NCBI GenBank assembly: GCA_964522435.1
Contig: CAZFUL010000006.1
Coordinates: 9,573 to 73,572, forward strand
Direction of reading: 5' to 3'
Length of the DNA: 64,000 nucleotides
From: an uncultured Gammaproteobacteria bacterium
Lineage (GTDB): Bacteria; Patescibacteriota; Patescibacteriia; Magasanikbacterales; UBA922
Position 1 is the stretch's first letter; each line of letters begins with the position of its first letter. Of this stretch, positions 13,201 through 36,505 are shown piece by piece. The position numbers were made by a program, and so were the translations under genes. The notes beneath the pieces are model-generated. The model was not told where the DNA came from and ran no database searches. It saw only the letters and a program-made list of their open reading frames with translations.

Positions 13201-16200
13201 GCAATACCACGTGCAGCAACACGAGATAGTTCTATCTTGTTTGATTTTGCATTCGTATCGTAGGCTTGTGGATATAATTCTGCATTGCGTCTGCCAACAT
13301 TCGCGACTAATTTTTCCAAGCGATATTCTGTTTGTCGCTCAATATTATTTTTTCCTTTTTCATTTGCCATGAGCGTATTCAAACTTGCCTCATGCACGGT
13401 TTTACTCGTAAATTGTAGATTCGTTTTACTGTTAAATCCTTCGAGCATCGTCTGCATAGCAGCAGCAAAACGTTCCTGACCAAACGTTCCTTCTGTTTGT
13501 GCAAATACGGCTCGTTGTCGTGCGTCTGCCTCTTGTACTACGTCAGCCCGTGCGCTTTGTTTTTTATCTAGTTGTCCTCGCTTTAATACGCGACGAACTA
13601 ACGAGGTTGTTCCAAATGCCAAACCACCCACAAGAGCCGCTGGTGCGGCAACCGTTGTGGCTAAACCAGCAACTGACAATCCTGCTCCGGCTGATCCGAG
13701 CAATACCCCGAGGTGTTTTTTGGTTCCGCGTACTAATCTATCCGCAAAACCAAAATTTGCTTGATCCATGAGTTCTTGTTGTTGATCGTAACTTCCCAAC
13801 GCACTATCACGAGCAATTTGTCTACTCAAGGCATCGTTGGCCATTGTTTGCATGACCTCTTGCATCATAAAGCAAAGCTGACTCTGCCATGTTTGCAAAA
13901 ATTGATCAAACGATGTGAAACCAGCTTTTTTAACACGCAATTCTAACAAGGCTTTCTTTGCCCCATCAATACCATCAAAAATATTTTTAAAGGCTGCTTC
14001 TACTTGGCGAGGATCTGGATTCTCTATCAACGACCGATATAGATCATTAAGCATGGTTGCACTAAACAGCTCTTTTAATTCCTCCATGCCACTCTTTTTT
14101 CGTTCAATAGTATAGATCTTTTGATCAACATTCTGGCGCCAAACAGATTCAAGAATACGTTGCTCTTGATTACTTTCTAGATGCTGTAACACAATTTCTT
14201 TTTGTCCGTTCTGTTCTTGTATAGCAACAACGACAAACGACGCGGTCGTACCATCTTGGCTTTTAAAAGTTACCACCTCACCCACTTTTGCGGGCTTGCC
14301 TTCGACCATAAATATCTCTGCGTTTCTTTTTTGTTCTTTTGCCGCGTCAACCGCAGCGTCCACCATGCCATGTAATTCGAGGGTTGCGCCATCGGCAACT
14401 TGCTTGCCCATAAAGGCTTGTAGTGTTGCTTCATCCCAAACAACCTCTGTCCCTTTATTGGATTTAAGGAGTAACTCTCCGTTTTCAGATAGTCCTTGTA
14501 CGGTTAATAGCAATACTTTTTTATCTTTACTTGTCCACTTAAGGGTAGCCCCAATCTCAAACGTTCGCCCAATAAATTCAATTGGCGTGGTTTTTTCTGG
14601 AGTTAACACAAAGTCTTGCCAGGTACTTGCGTCAAAGGTAAGCAATGCACCACCCATATCCAGTGCTTTTACTCGTAGCTGTGTACCATCGTCGTTTATA
14701 CCCACAATTTCATAGCGTTTTTTTGTATTCCCTGCTTTTTGTGCGTGATAAATATCTCCCACAAACAAGCGACGACCAGCAAAGGCAATGCCTTTAGGTG
14801 CTTCTTTCTTTGCCGTTGGTGTTTCTTTTTCTCCAACGAGCTCACCACTATCAAAGGCTGCTTTCCACGTATCTCTAGTAAAACGTTCTTCTATATCTGT
14901 TCCAAGCCGTTGCACCACAATTTCAGATCCTGTAGCTGTAGGAATAACACCCAAAACTTCTACCAAATACCCCGGATCTGGACTAACCATTCGTTTCCAT
15001 TTACTCTTTTTTGTCGGAGCACGTTCAAATGTTCCTAAAGCAATAGGATCATCCACTGGACGCACTTTTTCTTTTGCGGCTTGGGGTTCACCCATCAATT
15101 CAATTAATTTGGGTGTTGCCAAAACAGCCGCATCCCATTCTGCTTTGGTAAAATATACTTTTTCTGTTTTTCCTGATTGTTTTACGGCAATTTTGCCACT
15201 GTCTGGGTCAATTCCTAAAATTTCAATCGTATGTGGATTGGTTGGATCAATGAGGTTTTTCCATTTGCTGCCTTTTTTAGGTTGCTCTGCAAACGCAGCA
15301 AGCGCAACTTCATCATCGACAATGCGGGGTTCTGTGACAGGTTTTTTCTCATCTTTTACATAGATATCTCCATCGGCTATTGCTTTATCCCAATCCAATA
15401 GCGTCATTTCTTCCATTACACGTGTTCCAACTTTTTGAAACACAATACTCCCGTTTTCAGGATTAATACCCAATATTTCTATGGTATGTGCAGTACCATC
15501 TGATTTAATTCTTCCCCACTTACTATCTTTTGTTGGTTCTCCATCAAAATCTTCTAACGCGGTTTCATCATTTACAAAACGAATCTTTTCAGGTGCTGGC
15601 GCTTTATCTTTGTTGTCTTTTACAGAAATTGTTCCACTTGCCACTCCTGCATCCCAATCAGCAAGATCCATATATTCTTCATCTTGTTGTTTACCCAATC
15701 GATGAAACACTAATTGATTCGTATCTGGACGAATGCCTTTTATCACAATCGTATATCCTTGTTGTCCTGTTTTTTTGATTGTCCACTGTGCATCTTTTTT
15801 TGGTTCGCCAGCAAATTCTGCGAGTGTTGCTTCATCATTAATAACAATAACTCGTTCTTCTTTTGGAGGAGGAGTCTCTTTTTCGCCTTTGCGAGAAATT
15901 GTTTTTTCCACTACCACGCCATGATTCCAATCAGCTAAATCAATATACTCTTCATCTTCCGGTTTGCCAAAGCGATGCACAACAAGCTGCTCTGTATCAG
16001 GTCGAATTCCTTTTATAACAATCGTATAGGCTCGTTGACCATTTCGACGCACAGTCCACTGAGAATCTTTTCTTGGTTCTTCAGCAAACTCTTTCAGTGC
16101 GGCTTCGTCGTTAACCACTAAAATTTTCTCTTCTTTTGGAGGCGCTTGTTCTTTTTTGATTTCAATAAGACTACGATCGGCAAGTGCATCATGCCATTCT

Positions 16201-17375
16201 TGTTCAGTAAAAAATTCTTGATCACTCGTGTCTTGTCTTTGCAGTGCTAAACGTCCATAAGAAGTTACCCCTTTTACAATAAGTGTATGTGGTACCTTTT
16301 GACCAGTTTTTTTTCTTGTCCAACGACTATCAATATGAGGTGAACCGTCAAACGCTTCAAGCGATGCACGATCTTTGGTAATCGTCTCTGGTTGTGGTGG
16401 TTCTTTATCACTAATCAATTCTGCTAAAATATCCTCATTCCAATCTTGTTGTGTATAGAACACCTTATCACGACTTTGTTTTTTTATAGCAACAAGCCGT
16501 CCATCTTGAACACCTTTAATAACAAAAGGAAATTGTTTTTTACCATCATGAAACCAAAACGTGCTTCCTGCACGCGGATCCTGCATAAAACCCGCAAATG
16601 CTTCCTCTTCTGTTTGTAAGCCACGAGATTCTGGCGCTGCGGTTGTATCTGGTATATCTTCTATTCTGGCATGAAAATTATGTAACTCTTGTAGTGTGTA
16701 GGGTTGCGTATCCCCCTCGACAAATACACGTCCATCTTTTATTTTTTCCACAATAACAATTCCCCTAAACAAATTACCATCAGCCCCTTCTTGATCAAGC
16801 TCAATATGCATACCTGCACGGAGCTGTTTCTTTTGAAAATAAATGCTATTTTTTCGTATTTCCCAATCAGTCCCTGAAGCTTGAGATTCTGGCGAAGCAA
16901 CGGCACTAAGATTCGTTGTTGGTGGAGGAACAGACTCGTTATCTAACCCTTTACTTGCAAGAAAATCAGTTACCTGAATAAGCGGCACGTTTCTCGTTGC
17001 CGCTTGAAAACTTCGAGATAAGGCCGGAATGTCTACCTTTTTTCCCGGAGGTAATTCATCTAACACAACTAATTCAGCAACAATTTTTGCTTTTTCATTA
17101 CGAAGTCTCACTAATTGTTCGACAAATGGTCGTAATGCTGTTTGTGTGCTTTTTTGCATCAATGTTTTAATCGCTGCATCAATAGCCCTTAACCGTTGAT
17201 CAACTTGTTGTGCAATTTTTTTATTTTCGGCTTTCATTTCTTCAATCACCTGCCTCACCTCTTCTCGATATTCACCGACAGTTTGCAACGCAGCCTCTTT
17301 ATCAGCATGCAGTTCATGCAATGTTTCTACTTTCTTTTGTAAGTCTTCTAATTGTTGTTTATGTTGTCCAGGCAT
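10269..17375 (-). CDS. Giant (2368 aa) repeat protein without signal peptide: N-terminal coiled coil, ~10 copies of a ~90-100-aa module, Gly-rich hydrophobic segments
   Basis: Continuous ORF. Repeated modules such as ...YTIVIKGIRPDTEQLVVHRFGKPEDEEYIDLADWNHGV... recur with variation. Glycine-zipper-like TM segments (GLSVAGLATTVAAPAALVGGLAFG; FTFVGGALVGGTLAMSSG). Confidence 0.6.
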   Translation of the reverse strand: MPGQHKQQLEDLQKKVETLHELHADKEAALQTVGEYREEVRQVIEEMKAENKKIAQQVDQRLRAIDAAIKTLMQKSTQTALRPFVEQLVRLRNEKAKIVAELVVLDELPPGKKVDIPALSRSFQAATRNVPLIQVTDFLASKGLDNESVPPPTTNLSAVASPESQASGTDWEIRKNSIYFQKKQLRAGMHIELDQEGADGNLFRGIVIVEKIKDGRVFVEGDTQPYTLQELHNFHARIEDIPDTTAAPESRGLQTEEEAFAGFMQDPRAGSTFWFHDGKKQFPFVIKGVQDGRLVAIKKQSRDKVFYTQQDWNEDILAELISDKEPPQPETITKDRASLEAFDGSPHIDSRWTRKKTGQKVPHTLIVKGVTSYGRLALQRQDTSDQEFFTEQEWHDALADRSLIEIKKEQAPPKEEKILVVNDEAALKEFAEEPRKDSQWTVRRNGQRAYTIVIKGIRPDTEQLVVHRFGKPEDEEYIDLADWNHGVVVEKTISRKGEKETPPPKEERVIVINDEATLAEFAGEPKKDAQWTIKKTGQQGYTIVIKGIRPDTNQLVFHRLGKQQDEEYMDLADWDAGVASGTISVKDNKDKAPAPEKIRFVNDETALEDFDGEPTKDSKWGRIKSDGTAHTIEILGINPENGSIVFQKVGTRVMEEMTLLDWDKAIADGDIYVKDEKKPVTEPRIVDDEVALAAFAEQPKKGSKWKNLIDPTNPHTIEILGIDPDSGKIAVKQSGKTEKVYFTKAEWDAAVLATPKLIELMGEPQAAKEKVRPVDDPIALGTFERAPTKKSKWKRMVSPDPGYLVEVLGVIPTATGSEIVVQRLGTDIEERFTRDTWKAAFDSGELVGEKETPTAKKEAPKGIAFAGRRLFVGDIYHAQKAGNTKKRYEIVGINDDGTQLRVKALDMGGALLTFDASTWQDFVLTPEKTTPIEFIGRTFEIGATLKWTSKDKKVLLLTVQGLSENGELLLKSNKGTEVVWDEATLQAFMGKQVADGATLELHGMVDAAVDAAKEQKRNAEIFMVEGKPAKVGEVVTFKSQDGTTASFVVVAIQEQNGQKEIVLQHLESNQEQRILESVWRQNVDQKIYTIERKKSGMEELKELFSATMLNDLYRSLIENPDPRQVEAAFKNIFDGIDGAKKALLELRVKKAGFTSFDQFLQTWQSQLCFMMQEVMQTMANDALSRQIARDSALGSYDQQQELMDQANFGFADRLVRGTKKHLGVLLGSAGAGLSVAGLATTVAAPAALVGGLAFGTTSLVRRVLKRGQLDKKQSARADVVQEADARQRAVFAQTEGTFGQERFAAAMQTMLEGFNSKTNLQFTSKTVHEASLNTLMANEKGKNNIERQTEYRLEKLVANVGRRNAELYPQAYDTNAKSNKIELSRVAARGIANLFSGDLFLNAKGNKRFVGDIFTFVGGALVGGTLAMSSGHILAKTAARLTSGTLRRSVESYYKKGEFAEQAKQDAILKLERALANGKINEATLKALNAKLTTLEKGSPTQSQQTRILEALKAGLPAGIFTAALGLGVDGVRYALPTMDGPHHLDHEINKMTGMKLEDVTAEQPEHVQDSADGRYAGAQDREVVRPVQSRMETAERPVGVGDLQKNLNKFTLAGEDARGKNVLHVANTLQQDATMKALIIEKERIAHPEYTTLNDNQVLHRWRVELAKDAGWDMNSRTYTKTPLFEVNGKQIEFKPFIKDDGTIGITADKEFIKEHGAKSFPEKVLPAETAKHSLGALGEKHGIVKIDSLPPKAVRINGFALERSALFGSTERANEVYIKTIDGKSFLFVKHVDAQGKASVYQFEGAKAKALLSDLNREASLTDMPRQRLEIVNEQQRFAPKSEILKAELDDEGRITKPALPEQFTRGNRTGIAVGKQGAYEYWVTGKQPDAAVYIKTNTGTVMKTTLAELQGEKNKGMDALVSKADAQKVVAATLPDKLDSTNRSGMTNSNGKRAEYWIRPEQGKQVVYIRTDDGKVLKTDMEALRGGNIPKTDAVDLKQEQQLREKQLFENKVTQITTDKALLREMRTRALFQERGADGQKAFDEFAKDYVKKYPTADITDPEEKKDLIRAWKDKVAEIMSKPMMVDRSDVSLLPTADKPIVVLPAVESGKQQISVWNETQRQAQPITLPAAWESKLQDNKLIVPIAETPTAVDVQFRYDPTVKETVPFFRVDAGQAANGTKSYEYYRVADVTNDQYASPVELPEPVQATVPPVIGEQQTEQPVAPVETKPAVPPTEAAPQNQNNVVEFAPQASAQTPIVLERKGDAVTLRSWDAVAKKSIAFDLPDRLVAQMAGGKLQMDLLGTPTTGEIIWSRVNGVRQAVFQVDAGNEYELYPLDLLIKQELVDPVMVPKQGTDTTVVRNAA

Positions 17376-21045: not shown

Positions 21046-21457
21046 GGGGATGACAGGGATCGATAGACGGATCCGCTGATATTTATGTGCATACCGAGGT
21101 CGCCTGTCCTCGTTAAAAGGCAAGGCAACACACAAGTGCAAACCTTGTAAACCGAGTTAGCAACGTATTTGCCCGTGTTTCACGCGCATTTACTCCAGCG
21201 CTCGCAACCGCTGTCGCGTAATAGCTTGATAGCCATCGCGCCCACGATACTCAATAGTGGAACCGTGGTGTCAACCCAATTGAGTGTAGATAGCGGATAT
21301 CTTGCATGGGTATCCCCCATCGAAATAAACCCCATGCAGGCTCTTGTGGATGTTGCTGGTTATATACCAACAATGAGCCTCAAAAAAAATCAGCTATGTA
21401 TGTAGGACATGATATAAGCCCGGACTAGACCCGAGTTCAATTCTCGGCATCTCCACA
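21046..21457 (+). ncRNA. ssrA: tmRNA (ssrA)
   Basis: 5' end GGGGATGACAGGGATCGATAGACGG matches the tmRNA acceptor/D-region consensus. 3' end has a T-arm CGAGTTCAATTCTCG and acceptor CATCTCC pairing with GGGGATG. Internal tag reading frame ends ...ALATAVA followed by tandem stops TAA-TAG (21219-21224). Sits directly after smpB. Confidence 0.85.
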
Positions 21458-21565
21458 AAAACAATGAGCAATGAACAATAAACAATGAACAAAACTTTCC
21501 CGTTCTGCAGTTTATTGAAGATAGCAAAATTGTTAATTGTTTATTGCTAATTGTTAATTGTTACT

Positions 21566-23454: not shown

Positions 23455-23530
23455 GGACCGGTAGTTCAATGGTTAGAGCACCGCCCTGTCACGGCGGAAG
23501 TTGCGGGTTCGAGCCCCGTCCGGTCCGCCA
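23455..23530 (+). tRNA. tRNA-Asp (anticodon GTC), CCA encoded
   Basis: Acceptor GGACCGG/CCGGTCC. D-arm GTTC-AATGGTTA-GAGC. Anticodon stem-loop CCGCC-CTGTCAC-GGCGG. T-arm GCGGG-TTCGAGC-CCCGT. Discriminator G plus CCA. Confidence 0.9.
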
Positions 23531-25168
23531 ATCATCTAAAACTGGGGTAACAACCCTAGTTTTTGTTTTCATTAAGCCAATTTCTTTGGTTATAGTGACT
23601 TTTTTCTTCCGATTGTACTCAATTAGGTAGAGATGTGGAGATTTGGCTGTATAGAGTACAGTTTGATCTTTGAGTACAGGGTTATAGTAAAAAAATTGGA
23701 ACATATCTCTTTTCTCTTCTGGGGTTGTTCCATAAAATCGGTCTTTGATGTTTTTTACAAAATCGAGATACGAAACGCAGGCTTCATACCAAACTTCTTC
23801 ATTTTTTTCTGTTACTCCCATTTCATCTTGTATAAGCTGCCTTTGTTTCGTTAACATTTCCTTCTGATACTTAAAATCTTCAATACTCAATAAATCCCCT
23901 TCTTTATTCTCTGGAGATATTTTCAGACTTACGAGGTTCTGGAACTTTGTCTCAATATTTTTTAATTCAGCAGTCTGTTTCTTCCGTTTTGCATTGTACA
24001 TCTCAACTTCTCCCGCATTTGTTTTATTTATCTCCTCAATAGCAAGCTCATAAAACTCTTCATCTATTTGTATATCTTCTAATAGGGCTTCGAGCTGTTT
24101 GTCTATCTCTGTTTCGGGTGTATATGCAATACCCTTACACTTCATGCACCTATAATAGACATGACCTTTTGCAGTAAGGGCTGATATATTTTTGCCACAC
24201 TCACCGCAAGCCATACTATTTGTATACCTGTAATAGTTCTTTGCGGAATGTGGCTTAGATCGCAATCCTAAGGCCTCTTGAGTGCGGTGAAAAAGCTCCT
24301 TTGTGATGAGTGCTTCATGACGAGTTTCTTCCGGTAACTCATCCGGCTCTATAATACTTTCCTTCCATGGAATAGCTCCATAGTAGAATGGATTTGTTAA
24401 TATTCTATGAATTGTCTGCTTACTTAACATCTTCTTGCTTCTGGTTGCGATAAGTCCCCATGACTCACTTTCTCTCCTTAGATGTGCAAGTGTGTACTTC
24501 CCAGTGGCTGATAAAATAAACAACTTTTTAACCAATGGAGCAATAATCGGATCTTGCTCGACCCGCTTCAAACGATGCCTACTCTCTTCCAGCACCGATT
24601 GCTTCTCTATCGTAAAACGCTTCCCTGATATCTTCCCATCCTTGTCTATATTCAAATAGCCTAATGGTGCATTTGACGGGTACTCCCCCTTCCTCAGCTT
24701 GGCCTTTATATCTCTCTGTACGAAATTACTTGTATCATCCGATGATTTTTTTGACATGGCCAGCTGAAGAGCCATAATAAAACCATCGTCACTATTTTTG
24801 TCGTATATTTTTTCTGGTGTACGAACGACATGTATCTCCCCCGTGTGAAGTTTGTGAAGCAACACTCCTGTATCAAGTGCATTCCGAGAAAGCCGAGATA
24901 AATGGCAACATAGGATCGCATCGGCTTTTCCCTCCTCCAAAATTTGGAGCATTCTCTTAAACTCTGGCCGACCAGGCGAATATGCAGATGCTGACTCCTC
25001 AAAATCAGCAATAATATTCAGATTGTGTCTCTTACATAATTTTTTCAAAACATCATCCTGAGAACGCAAACTCAATACCTGCCTATCATTTTCCTCAGAA
25101 GACTTTCTTTTATAGATAACATAACGAAGTTTATTTGGATCTAATTGTTTCTCTTCGTCAAAAAACAT
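23489..25168 (-). CDS. Large serine recombinase (integrase); 3' end overlaps tRNA-Asp
   Basis: 559 aa. N-terminal resolvase-type catalytic domain (YKRKSSEENDRQ... with nucleophile Ser). Central recombinase domain. Zn-ribbon (CGECGKN...YYRCMKCKG) and coiled-coil region as in large serine recombinases. Last ~14 codons are encoded by the complement of the tRNA 3' half. Confidence 0.85.
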   Translation of the reverse strand: MFFDEEKQLDPNKLRYVIYKRKSSEENDRQVLSLRSQDDVLKKLCKRHNLNIIADFEESASAYSPGRPEFKRMLQILEEGKADAILCCHLSRLSRNALDTGVLLHKLHTGEIHVVRTPEKIYDKNSDDGFIMALQLAMSKKSSDDTSNFVQRDIKAKLRKGEYPSNAPLGYLNIDKDGKISGKRFTIEKQSVLEESRHRLKRVEQDPIIAPLVKKLFILSATGKYTLAHLRRESESWGLIATRSKKMLSKQTIHRILTNPFYYGAIPWKESIIEPDELPEETRHEALITKELFHRTQEALGLRSKPHSAKNYYRYTNSMACGECGKNISALTAKGHVYYRCMKCKGIAYTPETEIDKQLEALLEDIQIDEEFYELAIEEINKTNAGEVEMYNAKRKKQTAELKNIETKFQNLVSLKISPENKEGDLLSIEDFKYQKEMLTKQRQLIQDEMGVTEKNEEVWYEACVSYLDFVKNIKDRFYGTTPEEKRDMFQFFYYNPVLKDQTVLYTAKSPHLYLIEYNRKKKVTITKEIGLMKTKTRVVTPVLDDWRTGRGSNPQLPP

Positions 25169-25349
25169 ATAATAGTATTATGAAATCTATAATCAGACAA
25201 TACCGAAAAAAATGGATTAAGTCTACTTTTTTACAGTCCCAATTTTTATAAATCTGATCAGATGACCAAATAATTCAAGAGCCTCTTGCTTCGTCAGCAG
25301 GATATTATACTTTCTTTGATACAATTCAATGTATTTTTTTAGACCTTCC

Positions 25350-25955
25350 TCAGTAATCATATCCAAAACCCAAGGATGTAATCATTTCAACAAGCTCATT
25401 ACTTAATCTCAATGTTTTTTGAAAACCTTTAGTAGGCCTTCCACGGTAGTATCTTTTTTTCATCTGTTTATTAAGAGTATCCAATTTCTGCTTCTTCCAG
25501 AACATCTTTTGTATTAAATATGTCAGACTCTTTGAGTTACATGTTCTAGTCTCATACGTTAGTCTATGACACTCATGGCATCCAAATTTACCGTCTAGGA
25601 AATAAAGACTTGCTATTCTCCTATCACATTCGCAAACAAACCATCTTCTAAACCCACCAAAATAGCATGGCGTTGAAGTGAGGTTTATATAACGGTATTG
25701 TAATACCCACTCTCCACTTTTCTTGTAAGAACAATATATTTTAAGCCCTTCGTTCCCGAGTTGATCTACTCGAAACTTAGGAATGAATAAGACTCTCTTA
25801 AATGGAAAGCCCCTATCCATCCGGTAAGTAACTTCAATTTCTCCTTCTTTATTCTTTTCAAAAACAAGCCTACTTATTGGTAAACAATCTATCTGACCTG
25901 TTGTTTTCTTTGGGTTTGGATGGTAGTAGGTCATACACTTTAAAGCCGAAATCAT
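25350..25955 (-). CDS. Hypothetical protein with Cys4 zinc-ribbon-like motif (CECDRR-x13-CHECH)
   Basis: 201-aa ORF (possible start MTYYHPNP at ~25934). No recognisable family. Confidence 0.35.
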   Translation of the reverse strand: MISALKCMTYYHPNPKKTTGQIDCLPISRLVFEKNKEGEIEVTYRMDRGFPFKRVLFIPKFRVDQLGNEGLKIYCSYKKSGEWVLQYRYINLTSTPCYFGGFRRWFVCECDRRIASLYFLDGKFGCHECHRLTYETRTCNSKSLTYLIQKMFWKKQKLDTLNKQMKKRYYRGRPTKGFQKTLRLSNELVEMITSLGFGYDY

Positions 25956-26058
25956 TAGAGATAGAGTGCTTTTTTCACAGTTTATTTACGTTTTTCTTTA
26001 CAGTAACAAAATAAAAAAAGACCGTCGTTACGGTCTCACTATTTCTTGTTACTTCTCA

Positions 26059-26907
26059 TTACTTCTCTCGGTTTTCCCCCTTTCGTTTCCTTCTTACGAC
26101 TTTCATGACTTCTCTGATATCAACATCTTGCAATTCCTTTGGAATATCTTTCTTACGTACAGGATTTAAAAATCGCATAGCATCTTTCGATGTATCTGGG
26201 AAGAATATATATTTTAGTTCGTTGATAAAAGCCAATTCCCTTACCACAAATATAAGGCTCTTTTTTAGTGGTTCGCCATTTATCCTAATATCCTCCCTAT
26301 GTATTATTATATTCGGATTTGCATAAATGTAGTCGAAGGCTTTATGGTTCACTCCTTCAAAATTAGGTTTAGACAAAAACATACTGTTTACCTTTATATT
26401 TCTTCCATCATACTCAACTCTAAAGACTACATCCTCTTCATTTTCAGGTATACCCTCTATAACAGGTATCGTTGCAAGATGCCCTTTTATTGCTTCTTTA
26501 TCCCTTATTAAAAAATCCAAACTTGTTTCATTTGCCAATTCGAGTGCGGGGACATCTGGATATCTTCTTCCCAATTCCACACCATCTACAAATCCTTCCA
26601 AAACATCCTCCACGCCCTCTTCTTTTATAGAAAAGGTATCAATATGCCCAACTAACCATTTTCGCTTCAATAACTGCCTCACAATGTCCACAAACGTAGC
26701 TTCACGTATGTATAGGCTCATCCCCCTATACTCAAAACTATTAGATAAGCTATACCTTTCTTCTTCCAATCGTTCCTCTACTTCTCTAACACTCATTCCG
26801 GACAAATCGTCACTATCGTACCCTGATATTTCTACGAGCTTTGATAATAGGAAAAAAGATGCTTGTTGTTGGTTTTCTATGTATGGCATATACATATATT
26901 TTACCAA
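26059..26907 (-). CDS. Hypothetical protein (282 aa)
   Basis: ORF only. Acidic. No recognisable family. Confidence 0.35.
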   Translation of the reverse strand: MVKYMYMPYIENQQQASFFLLSKLVEISGYDSDDLSGMSVREVEERLEEERYSLSNSFEYRGMSLYIREATFVDIVRQLLKRKWLVGHIDTFSIKEEGVEDVLEGFVDGVELGRRYPDVPALELANETSLDFLIRDKEAIKGHLATIPVIEGIPENEEDVVFRVEYDGRNIKVNSMFLSKPNFEGVNHKAFDYIYANPNIIIHREDIRINGEPLKKSLIFVVRELAFINELKYIFFPDTSKDAMRFLNPVRKKDIPKELQDVDIREVMKVVRRKRKGENREK

Positions 26908-27017
26908 AAAATCTCTTATTTTTCCAGATCATTTTTTTAACTTGTTTTTTACAAAAAAATAGGGTAATATATATGCGACTGCCTACAAACTAACGCAAAA
27001 AGTTCTATTATTTAAGG

Positions 27018-27092
27018 CCTTGGACTGTCTCAGTCTTTTCCGTTTGCGGATAAAGACGGGGCAGTCAACCTCCACAAACGGAAGGCCTTAGG
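27018..27092 (+). other. Multi-stem structured element upstream of ORF 27098 (outer stem GGCCTT/AAGGCC, inner CCGTTTGCGG/CCACAAACGG, hairpin GACTG-tct-CAGTC)
   Basis: aaggccttggactgtctcagtcttttccgtttgcggataaagacggggcagtcaacctccacaaacggaaggcctta. Confidence 0.3.
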
Positions 27093-27097
27093 GCTTT

Positions 27098-27547
27098 TTG
27101 CGAATAGTGGGCAGTCTGGTTGGCTGTCCTTTTTTGTTATTTAATTTTTTTAATATGCATTCAAAAATTCAAGAGGCAATATCTGCAGGATTATCAGAGG
27201 AGGATGCTAAGTACATCCTTTCAAAAAACCCCGAAGTTAAAAAAATAGCGTTGGACATCCTAGAAAATCAACAAGGCGGTACACTCTATTTAAAACACAA
27301 TGGATCACATCCTCAATCTCTATTTGGGCGTGAAAACTATCAATTAGTTGGAGACGAAAAACTTCTACAAATTATGGCCAACTGCTATGACAGTAGGCTC
27401 GATACCCTATCTGGGAAAATTGGATGGAAATCAATATATGCTAATCCCGGTATAAAAAAAATACTATTGAAAATACTAAACCCTTGGTTTGGAAGATACC
27501 CCTCTAATTTTACTCGGCAGGCAATGTTAAAAAAACTTTTAATGTAA
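27098..27547 (+). CDS. Hypothetical protein (likely start MHSKIQEAIS at ~27155)
   Basis: ORF only. Confidence 0.35.
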   Translation: MRIVGSLVGCPFLLFNFFNMHSKIQEAISAGLSEEDAKYILSKNPEVKKIALDILENQQGGTLYLKHNGSHPQSLFGRENYQLVGDEKLLQIMANCYDSRLDTLSGKIGWKSIYANPGIKKILLKILNPWFGRYPSNFTRQAMLKKLLM

Positions 27548-27553
27548 AAAAAT

Positions 27554-27751
27554 ATGGAAACAAAGAAAGAGAAAATAAACTCTGAACATAAGAAAATAGC
27601 TTGGCATCAAAATTTCAAGTGGTGGCACATCACTTTGATTTCTTTATTTTCTGCCGGGTTGTACTTGGTAACTAAAATTGTTATTTTTGATTATATCTTT
27701 TTAGTTGGATTTGTTTACTCTATTGTACTTGCTTTCAAAAAGAAAACTTAA
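27554..27751 (+). CDS. Hypothetical small membrane protein (65 aa, 2 TM)
   Basis: ORF, 6 nt after the preceding gene. Two hydrophobic helices. Confidence 0.3.
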   Translation: METKKEKINSEHKKIAWHQNFKWWHITLISLFSAGLYLVTKIVIFDYIFLVGFVYSIVLAFKKKT

Positions 27752-27881
27752 AGTTGGATCAAGCAAGGCTAATTTAGTTTCCACAATTTAGTACACCCAA
27801 AAAAGAGTTAATGATTGTCCTTCGTCCTAATTTTTGATATACTATATGTAAGTTCTTCACCCTCCCTAATCCTATATCTTT

Positions 27882-28478
27882 ATGACTAAAGATAAAACAA
27901 TTCGTTTTGCTTTCAAAAAAATTCTACAGGATCAATATGGTGATGACCCTAATACAAAAATAATTGAGGAATTAGGTGTTGCACATGGTGCTGCACGTAT
28001 AGATATAGCATCGGTTAATGGAATAATACATGGCTACGAACTCAAAAGTGATGCAGACACACTAAACCGCCTTCCGGAACAGATGGAAATTTACAACATG
28101 ATTTTTGACAAAATCACACTGATTGTAGGAAAAACCCATGTACATGAAGCAATAAAAAAAATCCCTGATTGGTGGGGAATTACACTAGCTAAAATTTCCA
28201 GTTCTGGTGATATTGTTTTCCTCTCAATTAGAGAGGCTGAGTTTAATAAAAAACAAGATTATTTTACCATAGCAAAATTACTCTGGAGACAAGAGGCTTT
28301 GTATATTCTAGAAGAACTAAAGGCAGCAAAAGGCATTAGGTCAAAATCTAGAGACACAATATATAATCGACTCGTCGAAACACTAGACCCTGACGTACTC
28401 AAAAAAACTGTAAACGAACAGTTGCGTATTAGGTTAAATTGGCGATCTGATACAGCACAAACTCTATGTGGTGGTTAA
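27882..28478 (+). CDS. sce7726-family-like protein with PD-(D/E)xK-type motif (…ARIDIASVNG…HGYELKSDADTL…)
   Basis: 198 aa. Recalled resemblance to the sce7726 family that pairs with the sce7725/Beta family. D-x9-E-L-K arrangement suggests a restriction-endonuclease-like fold (inference). Confidence 0.5.
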   Translation: MTKDKTIRFAFKKILQDQYGDDPNTKIIEELGVAHGAARIDIASVNGIIHGYELKSDADTLNRLPEQMEIYNMIFDKITLIVGKTHVHEAIKKIPDWWGITLAKISSSGDIVFLSIREAEFNKKQDYFTIAKLLWRQEALYILEELKAAKGIRSKSRDTIYNRLVETLDPDVLKKTVNEQLRIRLNWRSDTAQTLCGG

Positions 28479-29532
28479 TTCCTACTTGTATCCAAGTGGT
28501 TGAGTTACCAGTTCCTTTTGGGTCTTTGCCCAATTTTTTTTTCTCAATATATTCGGAAAGGTAATTAGCTTTCTCTAATATAATTTCATCACCGTAGCTA
28601 TGCTGTTCACCCCAAAAAAAATCATTATCAACAAGAGACTTTGCATGACCCAAAAATTGTGCAGGGTTCCCCTTGGTGCCTCTTAAAATAAGCCAATCAT
28701 CGTTAAGTGTATATTTTATACTTGAGGAAGCACCAAAATTTTCTGCGTATCTATTATAAATCGGATGACGAATAGAATAATCTGAAAATGTTGGCACTCT
28801 TTCTAACCCCAAATCATTCACCTCTTTCCAATTTAACCAATCCATACGAGCAACCAAATTTGTTTCACCCACTTTACATTCGGACAAATCTTGTGGGAAT
28901 GCTCCACTGCAAAATATGTAGCCTCTCCACTCAGTTAGCTTCTTGATGCTCTGACTTTTCTTCAAGTACTCAATATCTGTTTCGGCAGTCTCTTTCATGT
29001 CAACGAGTAAATCCATATTATCTCGTTTCAACTTAAATGTTTGAACGATAGACTCAATATTCCGATTACACTGATCAATATCTTTGAGGTCTTGCTTCAC
29101 GATACGTAAACAAATACCATCAAAATAATCAAGGTTTCTTTCACAAACTGCACTTTTAAAGTCATCAGGATCACTTAGATTAAAAACAGGTACAAACCTC
29201 AACCCAAGCTTAGAAGCAAGGTTACTAATTTTATCTACACTTTCTATTTTAATCTCATTTTCTATCAAACTAAAATCAATCAAAATTTGACCGTCCCCCC
29301 AGGTATCTTTAACTTGTTGTGGTATTTCATCAATTTTTTTTCTAAACTCCATAATCTGCCATTGTGTGATTTCCTCTAAATTTTCTCGAACTAATGGTTT
29401 CCCTCCTTTATATTTTGGCATCACCAATTCAATCAAAGGTCTAATCATTGTTTTATTTTTTACGAACTTGAGTGCATTGCGTTCCGCAGATTTCCACTTA
29501 AGAACGGGAACATAATTATTAGTATCTGACAT
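28429..29532 (-). CDS. sce7725 / Beta-protein-family-like protein (start MSDTNNYVPVLKWKSAERNALKF…PLIELV)
   Basis: N-terminal YVP[IV]LKWK-x-[AG]E-x-x-AL ... PLIE signature recalled for the Beta-protein/sce7725 family. ATG at 29530-29532 lies 4 nt after the HigA stop. The ORF track extends to 29586. 3' end overlaps the convergent 27882-28478 gene by 50 nt. Confidence 0.5.
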   Translation of the reverse strand: MSDTNNYVPVLKWKSAERNALKFVKNKTMIRPLIELVMPKYKGGKPLVRENLEEITQWQIMEFRKKIDEIPQQVKDTWGDGQILIDFSLIENEIKIESVDKISNLASKLGLRFVPVFNLSDPDDFKSAVCERNLDYFDGICLRIVKQDLKDIDQCNRNIESIVQTFKLKRDNMDLLVDMKETAETDIEYLKKSQSIKKLTEWRGYIFCSGAFPQDLSECKVGETNLVARMDWLNWKEVNDLGLERVPTFSDYSIRHPIYNRYAENFGASSSIKYTLNDDWLILRGTKGNPAQFLGHAKSLVDNDFFWGEQHSYGDEIILEKANYLSEYIEKKKLGKDPKGTGNSTTWIQVGINHHIEFVLYQIANLT

Positions 29533-29536
29533 AATA

Positions 29537-30769
29537 TTAATTTTGACGGGCGGCATCGAAAAAATGACGCACCTTTGCATCCCCAATTATTTTATTTAAA
29601 TACACGTAATTACCTCTTTCATGCCTTATTTTTCCAGCAATAATTGCCACATGAATGCCCAGTTCTTTTGCTAAGCTATTAGCAGCTAGTGGTGAAGGAA
29701 CCAATTTCGCAGCACTTACATCCCATTTATCACTAGGAACTAATGCTTCTCCAGCCAAGTTGTCAGCCTCCTTTTCTTTTTCATCGATTTCCATACCTTT
29801 TATTCCGTCTAGCTCATCGAAAAATAACTCAGAACTGTTGCCGTAGTGCAATGCTATATGAGCTAATTCATGCATTAATGTAAACCAAAAGTTATCAAGC
29901 CGATCATGTCTAAGTGTTAACCCTATAACTGGTTTATCTTCAATAGTAAACATGGCCGCTCCATCTAAACGAGTTTTAGGAAAGTGAGGTTCAGTAACAA
30001 GTACTATCCCATGATTTTTAAGAAATTCTTGAGCTAACAAGGGGCTTTTATCTTGTATGCTTAACTTCACTAGACGCCTCATGAAATCAAGGTCTATTAT
30101 ACCTTTTTTGTATTTAATAGGTGTTTCTATTTCATAAGCTTTTTTTAGTACACAGCCAGCCCAGGCTGAAAGAGCTTGTCGATCTGTTGTTGGTGAGGAT
30201 CTGTAATTTGTTTGTCTAAGTAATCCCTGGAATTGAAGAGGAGAACCCCCTAGTGAGAAAAAAGTTTTTAATACTGTAGAACCATTCTCTCCATCAAACA
30301 TTTGATCTCCAAAATAGCCACGTTTACTCATTTCCTTCAACAAATGTTTACTCCAATTGGCGAACATGGGAACCCCTTCTTTGTCAGGTTTTCTTAAAAG
30401 TGCCTTTGCGGGTATCCCCAAACCATCTTCAAGAGATCTCATCATTTCAACCGTCAATTGACGTTTACCGGAAAGTATTTCAGACACTCGACTTCGACTT
30501 CCTATAAAAGGAACAAGATCAGTTGGTTTTAAGCCTAGTTGATCCATTCTAAATAGAATGGCGTCAATAGCACCTACTACAGACTCTGGAAACTGCTGAG
30601 ACTCATATTCTTTGACAAGAGTAACTAGAAGAGATAGTTTTTCGCCCTCTTCTGTGTCAGGATCAGGATCACTAATCATGAGCTGCTCAATAAATTTGAG
30701 AGCCTCATCATAGTCAGATTGATTTTTTATGAGTTTTATTTTATTAGACATACAACAATTAGTTACCAT
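29537..30769 (-). CDS. higA: HigA-family antitoxin (XRE HTH) fused to ImmA/IrrE-type Zn-metallopeptidase domain (HEXXH: MHELAH)
   Basis: N-terminal ~120 aa closely resembles HigA (…FIGSRSRVSEILSGKRQLTVEMMRSLEDGLGIPAKALL). C-terminal ~290 aa carries the HELAH Zn-peptidase motif typical of COG2856/ImmA. ATG overlaps the higB stop (ATGGTAA). Confidence 0.7.
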   Translation of the reverse strand: MVTNCCMSNKIKLIKNQSDYDEALKFIEQLMISDPDPDTEEGEKLSLLVTLVKEYESQQFPESVVGAIDAILFRMDQLGLKPTDLVPFIGSRSRVSEILSGKRQLTVEMMRSLEDGLGIPAKALLRKPDKEGVPMFANWSKHLLKEMSKRGYFGDQMFDGENGSTVLKTFFSLGGSPLQFQGLLRQTNYRSSPTTDRQALSAWAGCVLKKAYEIETPIKYKKGIIDLDFMRRLVKLSIQDKSPLLAQEFLKNHGIVLVTEPHFPKTRLDGAAMFTIEDKPVIGLTLRHDRLDNFWFTLMHELAHIALHYGNSSELFFDELDGIKGMEIDEKEKEADNLAGEALVPSDKWDVSAAKLVPSPLAANSLAKELGIHVAIIAGKIRHERGNYVYLNKIIGDAKVRHFFDAARQN

Positions 30770-31041
30770 TTCATATACTCATCATGTGTACCCACATTTT
30801 TTACGAGAACAATGTAATTTTTGTAATTTATTCGTACTCTCAAGCGGTACTTATTTCCTCTAATATTAAATACAACTTCGTCCTCAGGTAGAATACTTGC
30901 TTTGGGATACCTATTTTTGACAGCCGAGGGTGTATCCCAATGAGCATCATTTGCCTCACATTCCCATGCCTCCATGTGTTTTTTCGCATCAGCATGTTTC
31001 TGCTTGAAATTTTCTAATATCTGTTGTCCAATCAGTTTCAT
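30763..31041 (-). CDS. higB: HigB-family type II toxin (RelE/ParE superfamily mRNA interferase)
   Basis: 92 aa. …FNIRGNKYRLRVRINYKNYIVLVKNVGTHDEY… aligns with the E. coli HigB pattern (FNVGGNELRVV…VMTHKEYD). Toxin-first gene order as in higBA. Confidence 0.75.
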   Translation of the reverse strand: MKLIGQQILENFKQKHADAKKHMEAWECEANDAHWDTPSAVKNRYPKASILPEDEVVFNIRGNKYRLRVRINYKNYIVLVKNVGTHDEYMKW

Positions 31042-31213
31042 ACGAAAAGCCGTCTGCTATTTATGGTATATACAATGTTCCCATATTGGGATATAATAAC
31101 ATACCATCAATATTACTTCAAGGGAGCTTTGTGGATAAAATTTATACTGCACCATCCAGTACAAACCGACTCTTTTGAAAATACGTTATAATCTTGTCCA
31201 CTACGTCCCGCAG

Positions 31214-31246
31214 GAAAAAATCCCTCATCAGAGGGGTTTTTTATTT
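31214..31246. terminator. Bidirectional intrinsic terminator (AAAAAATCCCTC-atca-GAGGGGTTTTTT)
   Basis: 5-6-bp GC stem with flanking A-run and T-run. Confidence 0.7.
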
Positions 31247-31298
31247 TATCTATTTTGCTATATACATGCTATACTAAATAGAGTATATACTCTCTCCT

Positions 31299-31697
31299 AT
31301 GAAAAAATTTTTACAGATATTTTTTATCACCTTAGGTAGTATCTTTTTTGTTCTTATTCTTGCCGGTATCTATCTCTATATTGCAGATCCATTTCATATA
31401 AAACCACTGTTTATCAATAACAGCGATACCATACTGCCTATAGAGGAACCCACATCTACTACCCAAGAAACTCCCTCTCCTAAAACGACCTCTGCTGATA
31501 AACACCCACTATTATCAGAAGCTCAAGAAAAAACAGTAGAAAAAGTTGGCATTGATCCAGCACAACTTCCGACGCAACTGACTCCTGAAATGGAAGCCTG
31601 CTTTAACAGCGCATTAGGTGAAGCGCGAGTGAATGAAATTAAAGCAGGGGCAACACCAACCGTTGTGGATTATATGACGGCTCGTGGCTGTTTATAA
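31299..31697 (+). CDS. Hypothetical exported/membrane-anchored protein (132 aa)
   Basis: N-terminal hydrophobic helix (ITLGSIFFVLILAGIYLYI), Ser/Thr/Pro-rich linker, C-terminal Cys pair. Strong terminator follows at 31715-31757 (GAGCCCTAAACT-atatta-AGTTTAGGGCTC-TTTT). Confidence 0.45.
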   Translation: MKKFLQIFFITLGSIFFVLILAGIYLYIADPFHIKPLFINNSDTILPIEEPTSTTQETPSPKTTSADKHPLLSEAQEKTVEKVGIDPAQLPTQLTPEMEACFNSALGEARVNEIKAGATPTVVDYMTARGCL

Positions 31698-31817
31698 AAC
31701 AAAAACTATATCTATAAAAAAAGAGCCCTAAACTATATTAAGTTTAGGGCTCTTTTGAGTCCCCGATCTTGTGTGCCCGTTCACAAGATCAGGGAAAAAT
31801 GCACAGTGATGTAGTAT

Positions 31818-32252
31818 CTACCCGCGTGGTGATCGACGCGGCGGGAGTTCACTGAATGCTTCTTCGATCGTTACGCCACCTCCCCGATCCTGGGCAAGTT
31901 GCCATGCCCTCATGTAGCAATTGCGGCAGACGTGATGCGTGCCGATGGTTCGGCGAACATTGTCTGAAGCATTTGCCTCCAAAAAAGTCGAGCACCCAGG
32001 CGCTGCGCAGGTTGTAGCGATGCGAGGAAGCGCTCGCCGTGGCGGAGCAAGATCTGCTTGAAAGACCTCTGCCAGTGTCTTGCCGCTGTTTCTGGCCAGC
32101 TCCCAAATACGCTGGTAACAGCCTCGGCAGAGCTGTTCCCCGTTGATCGATCGCTGCGTGCCTTGAGTAGCTTTGGCAGAGGGTTTGCCACAGCCAGGCG
32201 CAGCACAGATTTCATCCGTCATCGATTTCTCCCTATATCCCATCCTTGGCAA
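31818..32252 (-). CDS. Hypothetical protein with duplicated Cys4 zinc-finger-like domain (2x CAAPGC…CRxCYxRxWxLA…G-T-x-x-E-x-F…LPPRR)
   Basis: 144 aa. The internal ~65-aa duplication is obvious in translation. GC (~60%) is well above the host's. Confidence 0.45.
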   Translation of the reverse strand: MPRMGYREKSMTDEICAAPGCGKPSAKATQGTQRSINGEQLCRGCYQRIWELARNSGKTLAEVFQADLAPPRRALPRIATTCAAPGCSTFLEANASDNVRRTIGTHHVCRNCYMRAWQLAQDRGGGVTIEEAFSELPPRRSPRG

Positions 32253-32375
32253 TATTACCGAAAATACTCATCAAACCAAGATGGTTAACAAGTACAATTT
32301 AATTAATCAAACAATCACTTTAATGTCAAGATACCAATATAAAGTACATATAACTGAATTAAAAAATTTTTAATA

Positions 32376-32408
32376 ATAAAAAACCCCGATTAAAATCGGA
32401 GTTTTTTA
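32376..32408. terminator. Intrinsic terminator (AAAAACCCCGAT-taaa-ATCGGAGTTTTTT)
   Basis: Hairpin plus T-run in an AT-rich spacer. Confidence 0.6.
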
Positions 32409-32603
32409 TTCCTCAATCAGCTCATAGCGATATAAGATGATATTCAGCTTCGGGGGTTTGCATAATATAGTCAATTTCATTTCTCATTTACCCCGTTGGC
32501 CGCTTGTACACATGGTTTTTAATATTTTATAACATGTATAGCGAACCAAGACACATTTGCAACGAACTAAGCGAGAACGATAGCGCTTTTTGGGCGCGAT
32601 GTT

Positions 32604-34931: not shown

Positions 34932-34936
34932 TTTTT

Positions 34937-36456: not shown

Positions 36457-36505
36457 AATACCCTCCTTGAAGGATGTCTCGTCACACCTGTGATATCATA
36501 CCCAT

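What the first reader, a model, noticed from the sequence alone, without database searches (positions are those of the whole stretch)
23455..25168. Large serine recombinase gene overlapping the 3' half of tRNA-Asp marks an integrated element
The integrase ORF reads through the complement of tRNA-Asp positions ~35-76. This is typical when an element integrates into the 3' end of a tRNA gene and regenerates it. Everything to the right for at least 10 kb is cargo-like: hypotheticals, TA and defence-like genes, a compositionally odd patch. A 45-codon ORF (25223-25360, minus strand) immediately upstream of the integrase could be a directionality factor.
Basis: partly seen in the sequence, partly recalled or inferred. 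Interest (0 to 1): 0.5.

Follow-up and report, generated by a model that had tools for sequence, protein, structure and literature searches.

The report
Serine-integrase defence islet at tRNA-Asp
A 7.7-kb mobile element carrying an anti-phage system has been inserted by a serine integrase at the very tip of a tRNA-Asp gene, and because the element's attachment site lies inside the integrase gene, insertion swaps the enzyme's last 21 amino acids for 11 read off the back of the tRNA.

Summary
A 559-codon large serine recombinase ORF (23489-25168, minus) ends 42 nt inside tRNA-Asp(GTC) (23455-23530, plus). It marks attL of a 7,683-bp element (23529-31211) in a Magasanikbacteria-like Patescibacterium. 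A related genome has the empty site, with the same flanking genes 7,681 nt closer together.

The crossover is in CCGC at tRNA positions 71-74, not in the 3' half. No tRNA half is duplicated or regenerated. The element replaces only the 3' trailer and supplies a new terminator, written antisense inside int.

attP lies inside int. The natural last 21 codons sit at the far end (31207-31145, minus), next to the tRNA's original terminator. They match the C-termini of homologues on tRNA-free contigs and are under purifying selection.

The pattern holds across the family. In 42 of 53 full-length genomic relatives the ORF runs into an antisense tRNA (Asp, Asn, Trp, Gln, His, Pro).

Cargo is a complete PD-Lambda-2 defence system. 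The 45-codon ORF is conserved just upstream of int in 35 loci; an RDF role is untested.

The closest precedent is Dehalococcoides DsiB at ssrA. This is a new variant of a known kind. Whether the tail swap regulates the integrase is inferred, not shown.

The parts
23455..23530 (+). tRNA-Asp(GTC), the attB target. Positions 1-73 are host DNA. The encoded CCA (23528-23530) is the complement of int's Trp codon.
   Evidence: ARAGORN; Rfam RF00005 66.7 bits; collinear with the empty-site tRNA in L144/L145
23525..23528 (+). attL crossover core CCGC (tRNA positions 71-74). The 2-nt crossover lies somewhere inside it.
   Evidence: Only identity shared by attL and attR. The same GCGG(G) core occurs in six other tRNA-Asp elements. 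The break in collinearity with the empty site falls here.
23489..25168 (-). int in its integrated form (Int-L, 559 aa). Residues 1-548 are element-encoded. The last 11 aa (TGRGSNPQLPP) and the stop are antisense tRNA.
   Evidence: phrog_95 integrase, 4e-59; AF2 predicts residues 527-559 as coil with pLDDT below 50
23538..23573 (+). Replacement intrinsic terminator for the tRNA (hairpin plus T-run). It is encoded antisense within int codons K-T-K-T-R-V-V-T-P-V.
   Evidence: Terminator scan. Similar hairpins occur in 38/62 integrated relatives against 12/310 control windows.
25223..25360 (-). orf45, a conserved small protein 54 nt upstream of int. It is a candidate accessory factor or RDF.
   Evidence: tblastn finds it on the int strand just upstream of int in 35 loci, including tRNA-free forms L064-L066. 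No Pfam, PHROG, PADLOC or NCBIfam hit.
25350..25955 (-). orf201, second conserved gene of the integration module, function unknown
   Evidence: Homologues lie next to int in 13 loci, directly upstream in most; in L056 the match is about 2 kb away on the opposite strand. No family hit.
26059..28478 (.). Cargo of unknown function: orf282 (26059-26907, -), orf149 (27098-27547, +), orf65 (27554-27751, +) and a sce7726-family protein (27882-28478, +)
   Evidence: NF033832 sce7726_fam, 3.4e-47; PADLOC 'cll', 1.2e-25
28429..31041 (-). PD-Lambda-2 anti-phage system. A is the HigB-like toxin (30763-31041), B is the HTH + M78 peptidase (29537-30769) and C is the Beta_protein (28429-29586).
   Evidence: PADLOC A 8.3e-38, B 1.5e-137, C 6.6e-38; Pfam HigB_toxin, Peptidase_M78/HTH_3, Beta_protein
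31142..31207 (-). Detached natural 3' end of int: 21 codons (DVVDKIITYFQKSRFVLDGAV) plus TAA. It rejoins int only in the excised circle.
   Evidence: Regex and HMM hits (24.6 bits; best wrong-strand hit in all loci 13.2). It is co-linear with P0022's ...RRGVVDKIITFFKQ....
31208..31211 (+). attR crossover core CCGC
31215..31250 (+). Original intrinsic terminator of the tRNA-Asp gene, now displaced 7.7 kb from it
   Evidence: Terminator scan. It is homologous to the terminator that directly follows tRNA-Asp in the empty site of L144/L145.
31299..31697 (+). Host gene orf132, the right flank outside the element
   Evidence: 76%-identical orthologue sits 88 nt after tRNA-Asp in Ca. Magasanikbacteria L144

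Best explanation
The ORF is an intact large serine integrase. It sits at attL of a 7,683-bp integrative element (23529-31211) inserted at the extreme 3' end of the host's tRNA-Asp gene.

Shown:
- Recombination took place within CCGC (tRNA positions 71-74). The mature tRNA therefore stays host-encoded.
- The element replaces only the 3' trailer. It supplies a new terminator (23538-23573) written on the antisense strand of int.
- attP lies inside int, 21 codons before its natural stop. Integration leaves those codons at the far end (31207-31145). The ORF then reads through antisense tRNA for 11 codons to a TGA formed by the complement of the anticodon loop.
- Excision would rebuild a 569-aa integrase carrying the family's conserved C-terminal motif.

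Inferred:
- The detached tail is a functional part of the free-form enzyme.
- The element therefore makes two integrase isoforms according to its state. This most likely couples integrase activity, stability or directionality to integration status.
- The conserved orf45 is the likeliest accessory factor.

The element's payload is a PD-Lambda-2 anti-phage system.
For: Empty site. Ca. Magasanikbacteria contigs L144/L145 have smpB-infC-rpmI-rplT-orf48-tRNA-Asp-terminator-orf129. The rplT-to-orf distance is 838 nt there and 8,519 nt in the window, a difference of 7,681 nt. Collinearity breaks exactly at CCGCCA/CCGCA.

Native tail at attR. It was found by regex and HMM and is co-linear with homologues whose int carries that tail contiguously on tRNA-free contigs L064-L066.

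Independent pairs. Separated tails lie upstream on the int strand in L009, L011, L012, L013, L017, L049, L056, L057, L069, L075, L076, L117 and others. Cores are 4-8 nt and the seven mapped tRNA-Asp elements (window included) are 5.7-10.7 kb; the tRNA-Asn element in L012 is about 11.2 kb.

Selection on the tail. pN/pS is 0.03/0.47, 0.09/0.66, 0.10/0.94 and 0.04/0.70. This extends 20 or more codons past the crossover, beyond a 25-bp att arm.

Family-wide tRNA overlap: 42/53 genomic loci and 92/120 proteins.

Terminators: (38/62 integrated loci against 12/310 controls).

Structure. AF2 predicts a helix at 532-558 with tail pLDDT 70-79 in the native-tail homologue P0022. The integrated isoform P0001 is coil with pLDDT below 50 over 527-559.

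Composition. The element has GC 0.33-0.37 against about 0.40-0.42 in the flanks.

Cargo.
Against: No excised circle or attP junction of this particular element was seen. No contig with a native-tail int is demonstrably circular, since none has a terminal repeat. Native-tail forms could therefore be tandem arrays rather than free circles.

The exact reconstructed attB was not found in JGI metagenomes. The empty site comes from a different species (L20 75%, orf132 76% identical) and reads CCGCCAG where the window's attR implies CCGCAG. The core could therefore be 4 or 6 nt.

Part of the tail's conservation is at the DNA level (block ATTATAAC), as expected for an Int-binding arm.

The stop position in the tRNA varies, with overlaps from 11 to 66 nt and a few ORFs reading right through the tRNA. 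The tRNA-coded tail itself is therefore clearly not selected.

Any regulatory effect of the swap is untested. The two AF2 runs used different alignments.
Confidence: 0.85

Rival explanations
1. The anatomy is the same, but the tail swap is a neutral by-product. attP happens to overlap int's 3' end, the last 21 aa are dispensable, and the 559-aa and 569-aa forms behave identically.
For: The tRNA-coded tails vary in length, with overlaps from 11 to 66 nt, and simply mirror the tRNA. All known LSR domains lie upstream of the junction. McMurdie 2011 (PMC3146451) considered this the 'trivial explanation' for DsiB. The conserved ATTATAAC block suggests a DNA-level constraint.
Against: The tail motif (V-[VL]-[DN]-x-[IV]-x-T-[YF]-F, often followed by Y-x-[YI]-[IV]-P) is conserved from 26% to 58% identity. 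pN/pS is far below 1 over 20 or more codons, well beyond an att arm. AF2 gives a moderately confident helix only for the native form.
Confidence: 0.35
2. One reading: classical tDNA integration into the 3' half of the tRNA, in the anticodon or T loop. The element would carry and regenerate positions ~35-76 and leave a displaced 3' fragment at the other end.
For: The ORF overlap spans tRNA positions 35-76. This geometry is the rule for tyrosine integrases (Islander, PMC4383910).
Against: No second copy of the 3' half exists, allowing up to 3 mismatches in 22-25 nt. attL and attR share only CCGC. The empty site is collinear with the window through tRNA position ~74.
Confidence: 0.03
3. The element is a fixed, decaying remnant. 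The LSR can no longer excise and the ORF extension is the first step of pseudogenisation.
For: A close relative (L001, 82% identical) has an LSR missing its first ~212 aa at the same tRNA. L049/L107 carry a disrupted int. No circular form was recovered.
Against: The window's int is full length with the catalytic Ser and all invariant residues. The detached tail is an intact ORF fragment ending in its own stop. Cores and terminators are intact. The related species lacks the element.
Confidence: 0.1

Closest known systems
Dehalococcoides ssrA-specific genomic islands with the CcrB-like serine integrase DsiB (McMurdie et al. 2011, PMC3146451)
   Same: A ~540-aa large serine recombinase sits at attL and reads out of the island into a t(m)RNA-type gene's 3' end. 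Its stop codon lies outside the island. Islands are small, carry variable cargo and form tandem arrays. The authors speculated that the enzyme may be complete only on the circular form.
   Different: The Dehalococcoides target is tmRNA in the T-loop with a 20-bp direct repeat. Here the target is the tRNA 3' terminus with a 4-8-nt core. Those islands have a second small serine recombinase, DsiA, and none is present here. DsiB C-termini were reported as divergent, whereas here the detached tail is a conserved motif under purifying selection. The host phylum is Chloroflexota rather than Patescibacteria. Sequence relatedness to DsiB was not tested.
Phage-type large serine integrases (phiC31, Bxb1, A118, SPbeta SprA)
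   Same: The domain order is the same: resolvase, recombinase domain, then zinc ribbon with a long coiled coil. Crossover cores are short, no long att homology is needed, and int lies next to attP. The nearest solved relative is SprA/YokA 9dxh, E 2e-8.
   Different: Those enzymes mostly target protein-coding genes, and attP lies outside the int ORF. Here the target is a tRNA gene, attP is inside int, and int's linker doubles as a terminator on the other strand. Mageeney 2020 (PMC7192596) found only 14/297 S-Int elements at t(m)RNA genes and called the usage previously unreported.
SSV1-type archaeal integrases (tyrosine family), whose attP lies inside int
   Same: Integration into a tRNA gene partitions the integrase gene. 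The intact gene exists only on the free circle (review PMC8371274 listed, and own knowledge).
   Different: That enzyme family and mechanism are unrelated to serine recombinases. SSV integration splits int into two large pieces and inactivates it. Here only the last 21 codons are exchanged.
Integration-dependent immunity of mycobacteriophages (Broussard et al. 2013; own knowledge; cf. PMC4929511)
   Same: attP lies inside a coding sequence, so integration changes a protein's C-terminus and hence its behaviour.
   Different: There the remodelled gene is the repressor, the integrase is a tyrosine enzyme, and the removed tail is an ssrA-like degradation tag. No such tag is evident in the tails here.
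PD-Lambda-2 anti-phage system (Vassallo et al. 2022; PADLOC models)
   Same: All three genes are present in order and are strong matches.
   Different: The system was found in E. coli. Here it rides on a serine-integrase islet in a Patescibacterium, and its activity is untested.

Membership tests
Large serine recombinase (serine integrase) | N-terminal resolvase catalytic domain with the nucleophilic Ser and conserved Arg residues | tested here: met
   PF00239 at 17-162, 9e-21. Y19, R21, S23, R92 and R95 are invariant in 33 family members.
Large serine recombinase (serine integrase) | Recombinase domain (PF07508) after the catalytic domain | tested here: met
   PF07508 at 210-300, 5e-11, above its cut-off
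Large serine recombinase (serine integrase) | Zinc-ribbon domain with four Cys and an inserted coiled coil | tested here: met
   PF13408 scores only 17.8 bits, below its 25.3 cut-off. However, C321/C324/C341/C344 are invariant, and AF2 shows a beta-ribbon at 327-341 followed by two ~45-residue helices at 370-417 and 429-472.
Large serine recombinase (serine integrase) | Catalyses attP x attB recombination with a 2-bp crossover | not testable with these tools
   Only inferred, from attL/attR/empty-site anatomy
Integrated mobile element (as opposed to resident gene order) | A related genome has the same flanks joined without the element | tested here: met
   L144/L145 have tRNA-Asp, terminator and orf129 adjacent. 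The size difference is 7,681 nt against an element of 7,683 nt.
Classical tDNA genomic island (Islander type) | Element regenerates the tRNA 3' part and leaves a displaced tRNA fragment (direct repeat of ~15 nt or more) at the far end | tested here: not met
   No second copy of the 3' 22-25 nt, allowing up to 3 mismatches. The shared core is 4 nt.
Dehalococcoides ssrA-GI / DsiB type | LSR gene at attL whose ORF runs out of the island into the t(m)RNA gene | tested here: met
Dehalococcoides ssrA-GI / DsiB type | Target is ssrA, with a 20-bp direct repeat and a co-encoded small serine recombinase DsiA | tested here: not met
   The target is tRNA-Asp. The tmRNA gene 2 kb to the left (21046-21458) is untouched. 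The core is 4-8 nt. No second resolvase-domain protein is in the element.
Dehalococcoides ssrA-GI / DsiB type | Sequence membership in the DsiB/CcrB clade | not tested
   No DsiB sequence was available. The NCBIfam CcrB model scores 52.7 bits against a cut-off of 900.
PD-Lambda-2 defence system | Three adjacent genes matching PD-Lambda-2_A, _B and _C | tested here: met
   E-values 8.3e-38, 1.5e-137 and 6.6e-38. The genes are contiguous on one strand.
PD-Lambda-2 defence system | Protects against phage | not testable with these tools
   -
Recombination directionality factor (for orf45) | Binds the integrase coiled coil and switches it to attL x attR | not testable with these tools
   Only conservation and position are shown: 35 loci, immediately upstream of int.

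The most novel reading that the evidence does not exclude
The integration state of the element is written into the integrase protein itself. The circular form makes a 569-aa enzyme with a conserved C-terminal helix that is needed for, or licenses, attP x attB integration. The integrated form makes a 559-aa enzyme with a disordered tRNA-coded tail and different activity, stability or directionality. This would be a built-in switch working with or instead of an RDF. It would be shared by a large clade of tRNA-targeting serine integrases in Patescibacteria, whose int linker also doubles as the tRNA's terminator.
Probability: 0.3. Interest if true: 0.75.

Novelty: new variant of a known kind. Interest (0 to 1): 0.5.

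Why it matters
Serine integrases are prized genome-engineering tools and are thought to avoid tRNA genes. This locus exposes a large, apparently undescribed clade that targets the conserved 3' end of tRNA-Asp, Asn, Trp, Gln, His or Pro genes. More than 1,000 proteins matched at E <= 1e-3, mostly from Patescibacteria.

The clade comes with ready-made attP/attB pairs and small natural cargo islets of 6-11 kb. Such enzymes could give integration sites in organisms that have no genetic tools.

The attP-inside-int layout offers a directly testable case of state-dependent integrase isoforms. That idea was raised for Dehalococcoides DsiB in 2011 and I found no follow-up in the literature searched.

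The locus also shows a defence system (PD-Lambda-2) being moved between ultra-small CPR genomes. It shows too how an element repairs the transcription unit it invades, by placing a terminator inside its own coding sequence.

Tried and rejected
- Searched the window for a displaced tRNA 3' half with 22-25-nt probes and up to 3 mismatches. Only the tRNA itself matched. Generic direct-repeat search gave nothing relevant.
- The exact-protein look-up of the LSR is not on record.
- The right-flank protein look-up returned only the same strain with the element present (L002).
- The closest LSR relative (L001) is an N-truncated remnant at a contig end and not informative for attR.
- The viral-contig scan found no relatives.
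- The exact reconstructed attB 21-mer was not found in JGI metagenomes.
- L20-based relatives (L140-L143) have contigs that end just after rplT, or lack tRNA-Asp there. The empty site was finally found through orf132 homologues.
- The circularity test (terminal repeats) was negative on every whole contig tested.
- A search for dyad symmetry in seven reconstructed attP sites gave no convincing inverted arms.
- The ssrA-like degradation tag idea was dropped because native tails end variously and none is LAA-like.
- No second native-tail fragment lies to the right of attR, so there is no evidence that 31.8-37.7 kb is an older tandem element.
Full report
**The observation**

ARAGORN finds a single tRNA in the window, tRNA-Asp(GTC) at 23455-23530 on the + strand. 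Rfam confirms it at 66.7 bits. The 559-codon ORF 23489-25168 lies on the - strand.

Its Pfam hits are Resolvase (17-162), Recombinase (210-300) and a sub-threshold Zn_ribbon_recom. The catalytic Ser23 and four zinc-ribbon Cys are invariant across 33 relatives. PHROGs calls it an integrase at 4e-59. It is therefore a large serine recombinase (LSR), not a small resolvase.

Its last 14 codons (W R T G R G S N P Q L P P stop) are the reverse complement of tRNA positions 76 to 35.

**The surroundings**

To the left are housekeeping genes: smpB, a tmRNA gene (21046-21458), infC, rpmI and rplT. To the right, GC drops to 0.33-0.37 from about 0.40-0.42.

The genes there are hypotheticals plus a complete PD-Lambda-2 anti-phage system:
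- A, the HigB-like toxin, at 30763-31041
- B, the HTH + M78 peptidase, at 29537-30769, E 1.5e-137
- C, the Beta_protein, at 28429-29586

The host is a Patescibacterium close to Candidatus Magasanikbacteria, judged from L20 and orf132 homologues.

**The key lead**

No copy of the tRNA 3' half exists elsewhere in the window. The classical picture of regenerating the 3' half therefore fails.

The LSR's homologues gave the clue. They are more than 1,000 proteins, mostly from Patescibacteria, at 26-52% identity.
- Of the best 120, 79 end in the same 'xR..RDSNPxPxx' peptide, which is the antisense translation of a tRNA T-arm and acceptor stem. Frame and length are the same.
- Another 13 stop one or two codons past the same junction.
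- A minority carry a different, conserved tail after the same W/G-R junction, for example P0022 ...RR|GVVDKIITFFKQNPAFYICKFN.

**Finding attR**

I searched the window for that native tail. It appears once, on the int strand...CTG CGG | GAC GTA GTG GAC AAG ATT ATA ACG TAT TTT ..., encoding (L R) DVVDKIITYFQKSRFVLDGAV-stop at 31207-31142. The tail HMM scores it at 24.6 bits. The best wrong-strand hit in all loci scores 13.2 bits.

attL and attR share only GCGG on the int strand, which is CCGC on the + strand. This corresponds to tRNA positions 71-74, at 23525-23528 and 31208-31211. The element is 7,683 bp.

Immediately outside attR lies an intrinsic terminator at 31215-31242. Joining the host halves gives tRNA-Asp followed by its own terminator. 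Joining the element halves gives a 569-aa integrase that is co-linear with P0022.

**The empty site**

Homologues of the right-flank host gene orf132 led to Ca. Magasanikbacteria contigs L144 (GCA_018061685.1) and L145. Their gene order is smpB-infC-rpmI-rplT-orf48-tRNA-Asp-terminator-orf129.

The gap from rplT to the orf is 838 nt there and 8,519 nt in the window, a difference of 7,681 nt. In the alignment, the empty site follows window attL up to ...GGTCCGCCA. It follows window attR from ...CAGGAAAAAATCCC... onward.

It confirms an insertion and fixes the boundary at the tRNA's 3' terminus. The relative reads CCGCCAG where the window's attR implies CCGCAG. The identity core is therefore 4-6 nt and the exact crossover dinucleotide is undetermined.

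**Generality**

Among 61 loci from GTDB representative genomes, 53 carry a full-length int. In 42 of these the ORF runs into a tRNA gene on the opposite strand:

| tRNA target | loci |
|---|---|
| Asp-GTC | 20 |
| Asn-GTT | 9 |
| Trp | 7 |
| Gln | 4 |
| His | 1 |
| Pro | 1 |

JGI metagenome loci show the same pattern.

Detached native tails lie upstream on the int strand in L009, L011, L012, L013, L017, L049, L056, L057, L069, L075, L076, L117 and others. Cores are 4-8 nt, and attB reconstructs as tRNA plus terminator. The seven mapped tRNA-Asp elements, the window's included, measure 5.7-10.7 kb.

Contigs L064-L066 carry int with the native tail contiguous. They have element-type genes on both sides and no tRNA. 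These are attP-type forms, although none is demonstrably circular.

**Is the tail a real piece of protein?**

Between related elements the tail shows pN/pS of 0.03/0.47, 0.15/0.76, 0.09/0.66, 0.10/0.94 and 0.04/0.70. This holds even where the tail is physically separated from int. It extends 20 or more codons from the crossover, beyond the ~25 bp expected for an att arm.

A DNA-level block (ATTATAAC, 16-23 nt from the core) is also conserved. It is probably part of the Int-binding site.

AlphaFold2 of the native-tail homologue P0022 gives mean pLDDT 87.6. It shows a low-confidence linker at 518-531, then a helix at 532-558 spanning the junction and the tail, with tail pLDDT 70-79. The window's integrated isoform is predicted as coil with pLDDT below 50 from 527 to the end. 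The two runs used different alignments, so this is supportive only.

**A second dual-use feature**

Eight nucleotides after the tRNA, on the tRNA strand and inside the int ORF, lies a terminator-like hairpin plus T-run at 23538-23573. The int codons K-T-K-T-R-V-V-T-P-V are its antisense.

The same arrangement occurs in 38 of 62 non-redundant integrated relatives, and in nearly all tRNA-Asp ones. Only 12 of 310 control windows inside int show it. The element thus replaces the terminator it displaces. This should also shield int from antisense read-through coming from the tRNA promoter (inference).

**The integration module**

orf45 (25223-25360) is conserved on the int strand immediately upstream of int in 35 loci, including the attP-type contigs. 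orf201 is conserved in 13 loci. None of the cargo genes recurs in any other locus fetched.

orf45 matches no known family. Its position and conservation fit an accessory factor such as an RDF, but nothing here tests that.

**Mechanism: what is shown and what is inferred**

Shown:
- an LSR element inserted at the 3' terminus of tRNA-Asp
- attP inside int
- integration exchanges the last 21 aa for 11 tRNA-antisense residues
- the stop comes from the complement of anticodon-loop nucleotides 35-37
- trailer and terminator are replaced

Inferred:
- The native tail is functional in the free form.
- The two isoforms differ in activity, stability or directionality.

I put 0.85 on the anatomy. For the regulatory role of the swap I give about 0.3 to the strong switch model (see the section on the most novel reading) and 0.35 to the neutral by-product rival, leaving roughly a third for a weaker or unresolved effect.

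**Comparison with the known**

The closest precedent is the Dehalococcoides ssrA islands. [quoted passage not shown] The authors wondered whether it is complete only on the circle (PMC3146451). Differences here:
- the target is a tRNA, not tmRNA
- the core is 4-8 nt, not a 20-bp repeat
- there is no DsiA partner
- the tail is conserved and under selection
- a terminator is embedded in int
- the hosts are CPR bacteria

Mageeney et al. 2020 found S-Int use of t(m)RNA genes rare (14/297) and 'not reported previously' (PMC7192596). SSV1-type archaeal tyrosine integrases and mycobacteriophage integration-dependent immunity are functional analogies only. I found no paper on LSRs in Patescibacteria.

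**Verdict**

This is a real integrated element, correctly flagged but with the wrong integration geometry and extent. It is a new variant of a known kind. Interest is moderate (0.5) because of the clade-wide attP-in-int design and the tRNA targeting by serine integrases.

Noticed in passing
window 21046-21458 (+): Rfam finds a full-length tmRNA gene (108.6 bits) right after smpB. ARAGORN did not report it in the window, although it does find the tmRNA in relative L143.
   Followed up: partly
window 5001-10000: A sharp compositional island with GC 0.61-0.67 against ~0.40 elsewhere. Long ORFs lie on both strands. The only family hit is an 827-aa minus-strand ORF (5255-7738) with four MopE-type Cu-binding repeats.
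   Followed up: partly
window 31800-37700: A second variable patch lies beyond the host gene orf132. The relative L144 has ~1.3 kb between orf129 and the PEP-utilizer gene, and the window has ~6 kb. It contains hypothetical ORFs, a GSDH gene, and GC 0.47-0.51 at 32-34 kb. No att-like tail or integrase was found, so it is not part of the LSR element.
   Followed up: partly
L056 2452-3540; L117 1363-2080: Trp-targeting relatives carry two native-tail fragments 0.6-1 kb apart upstream of int. This suggests tandem or remnant elements at one tRNA, as in Dehalococcoides ssrA arrays.
   Followed up: no
L001 10001-11057: The closest relative (82% identical) is an LSR lacking its first ~212 aa (the catalytic domain). 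It sits at the same tRNA-Asp with different cargo (Fic, AAA_11/AAA_12 helicase with DUF559). It looks like a decayed element.
   Followed up: partly
window 31185-31192 (ATTATAAC on the minus strand) and equivalents in L009, L012, L049, L064, L069, L075: An 8-nt DNA block 16-23 nt from the crossover is conserved, including a rare ATA Ile codon. It is probably an integrase-binding motif. A similar ACTATAACC lies ~66 nt upstream inside int (T-I-T codons).
   Followed up: no
window 27882-28478 (+): A cargo gene matches the NCBIfam sce7726 family (3.4e-47), PADLOC model 'cll' (1.2e-25) and PHROG 984. Its function is unknown and it may be a further defence-associated gene.
   Followed up: no
window 10269-17375 (-) and 49640-60757 (-): Giant ORFs of 2,368 and 3,705 aa, typical of CPR genomes. 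Not examined.
   Followed up: no
L144 5530-5862: The relative with the empty site has a GIY-YIG ORF between smpB/tmRNA and infC that the window lacks. It may be a homing-endonuclease-type insertion.
   Followed up: no
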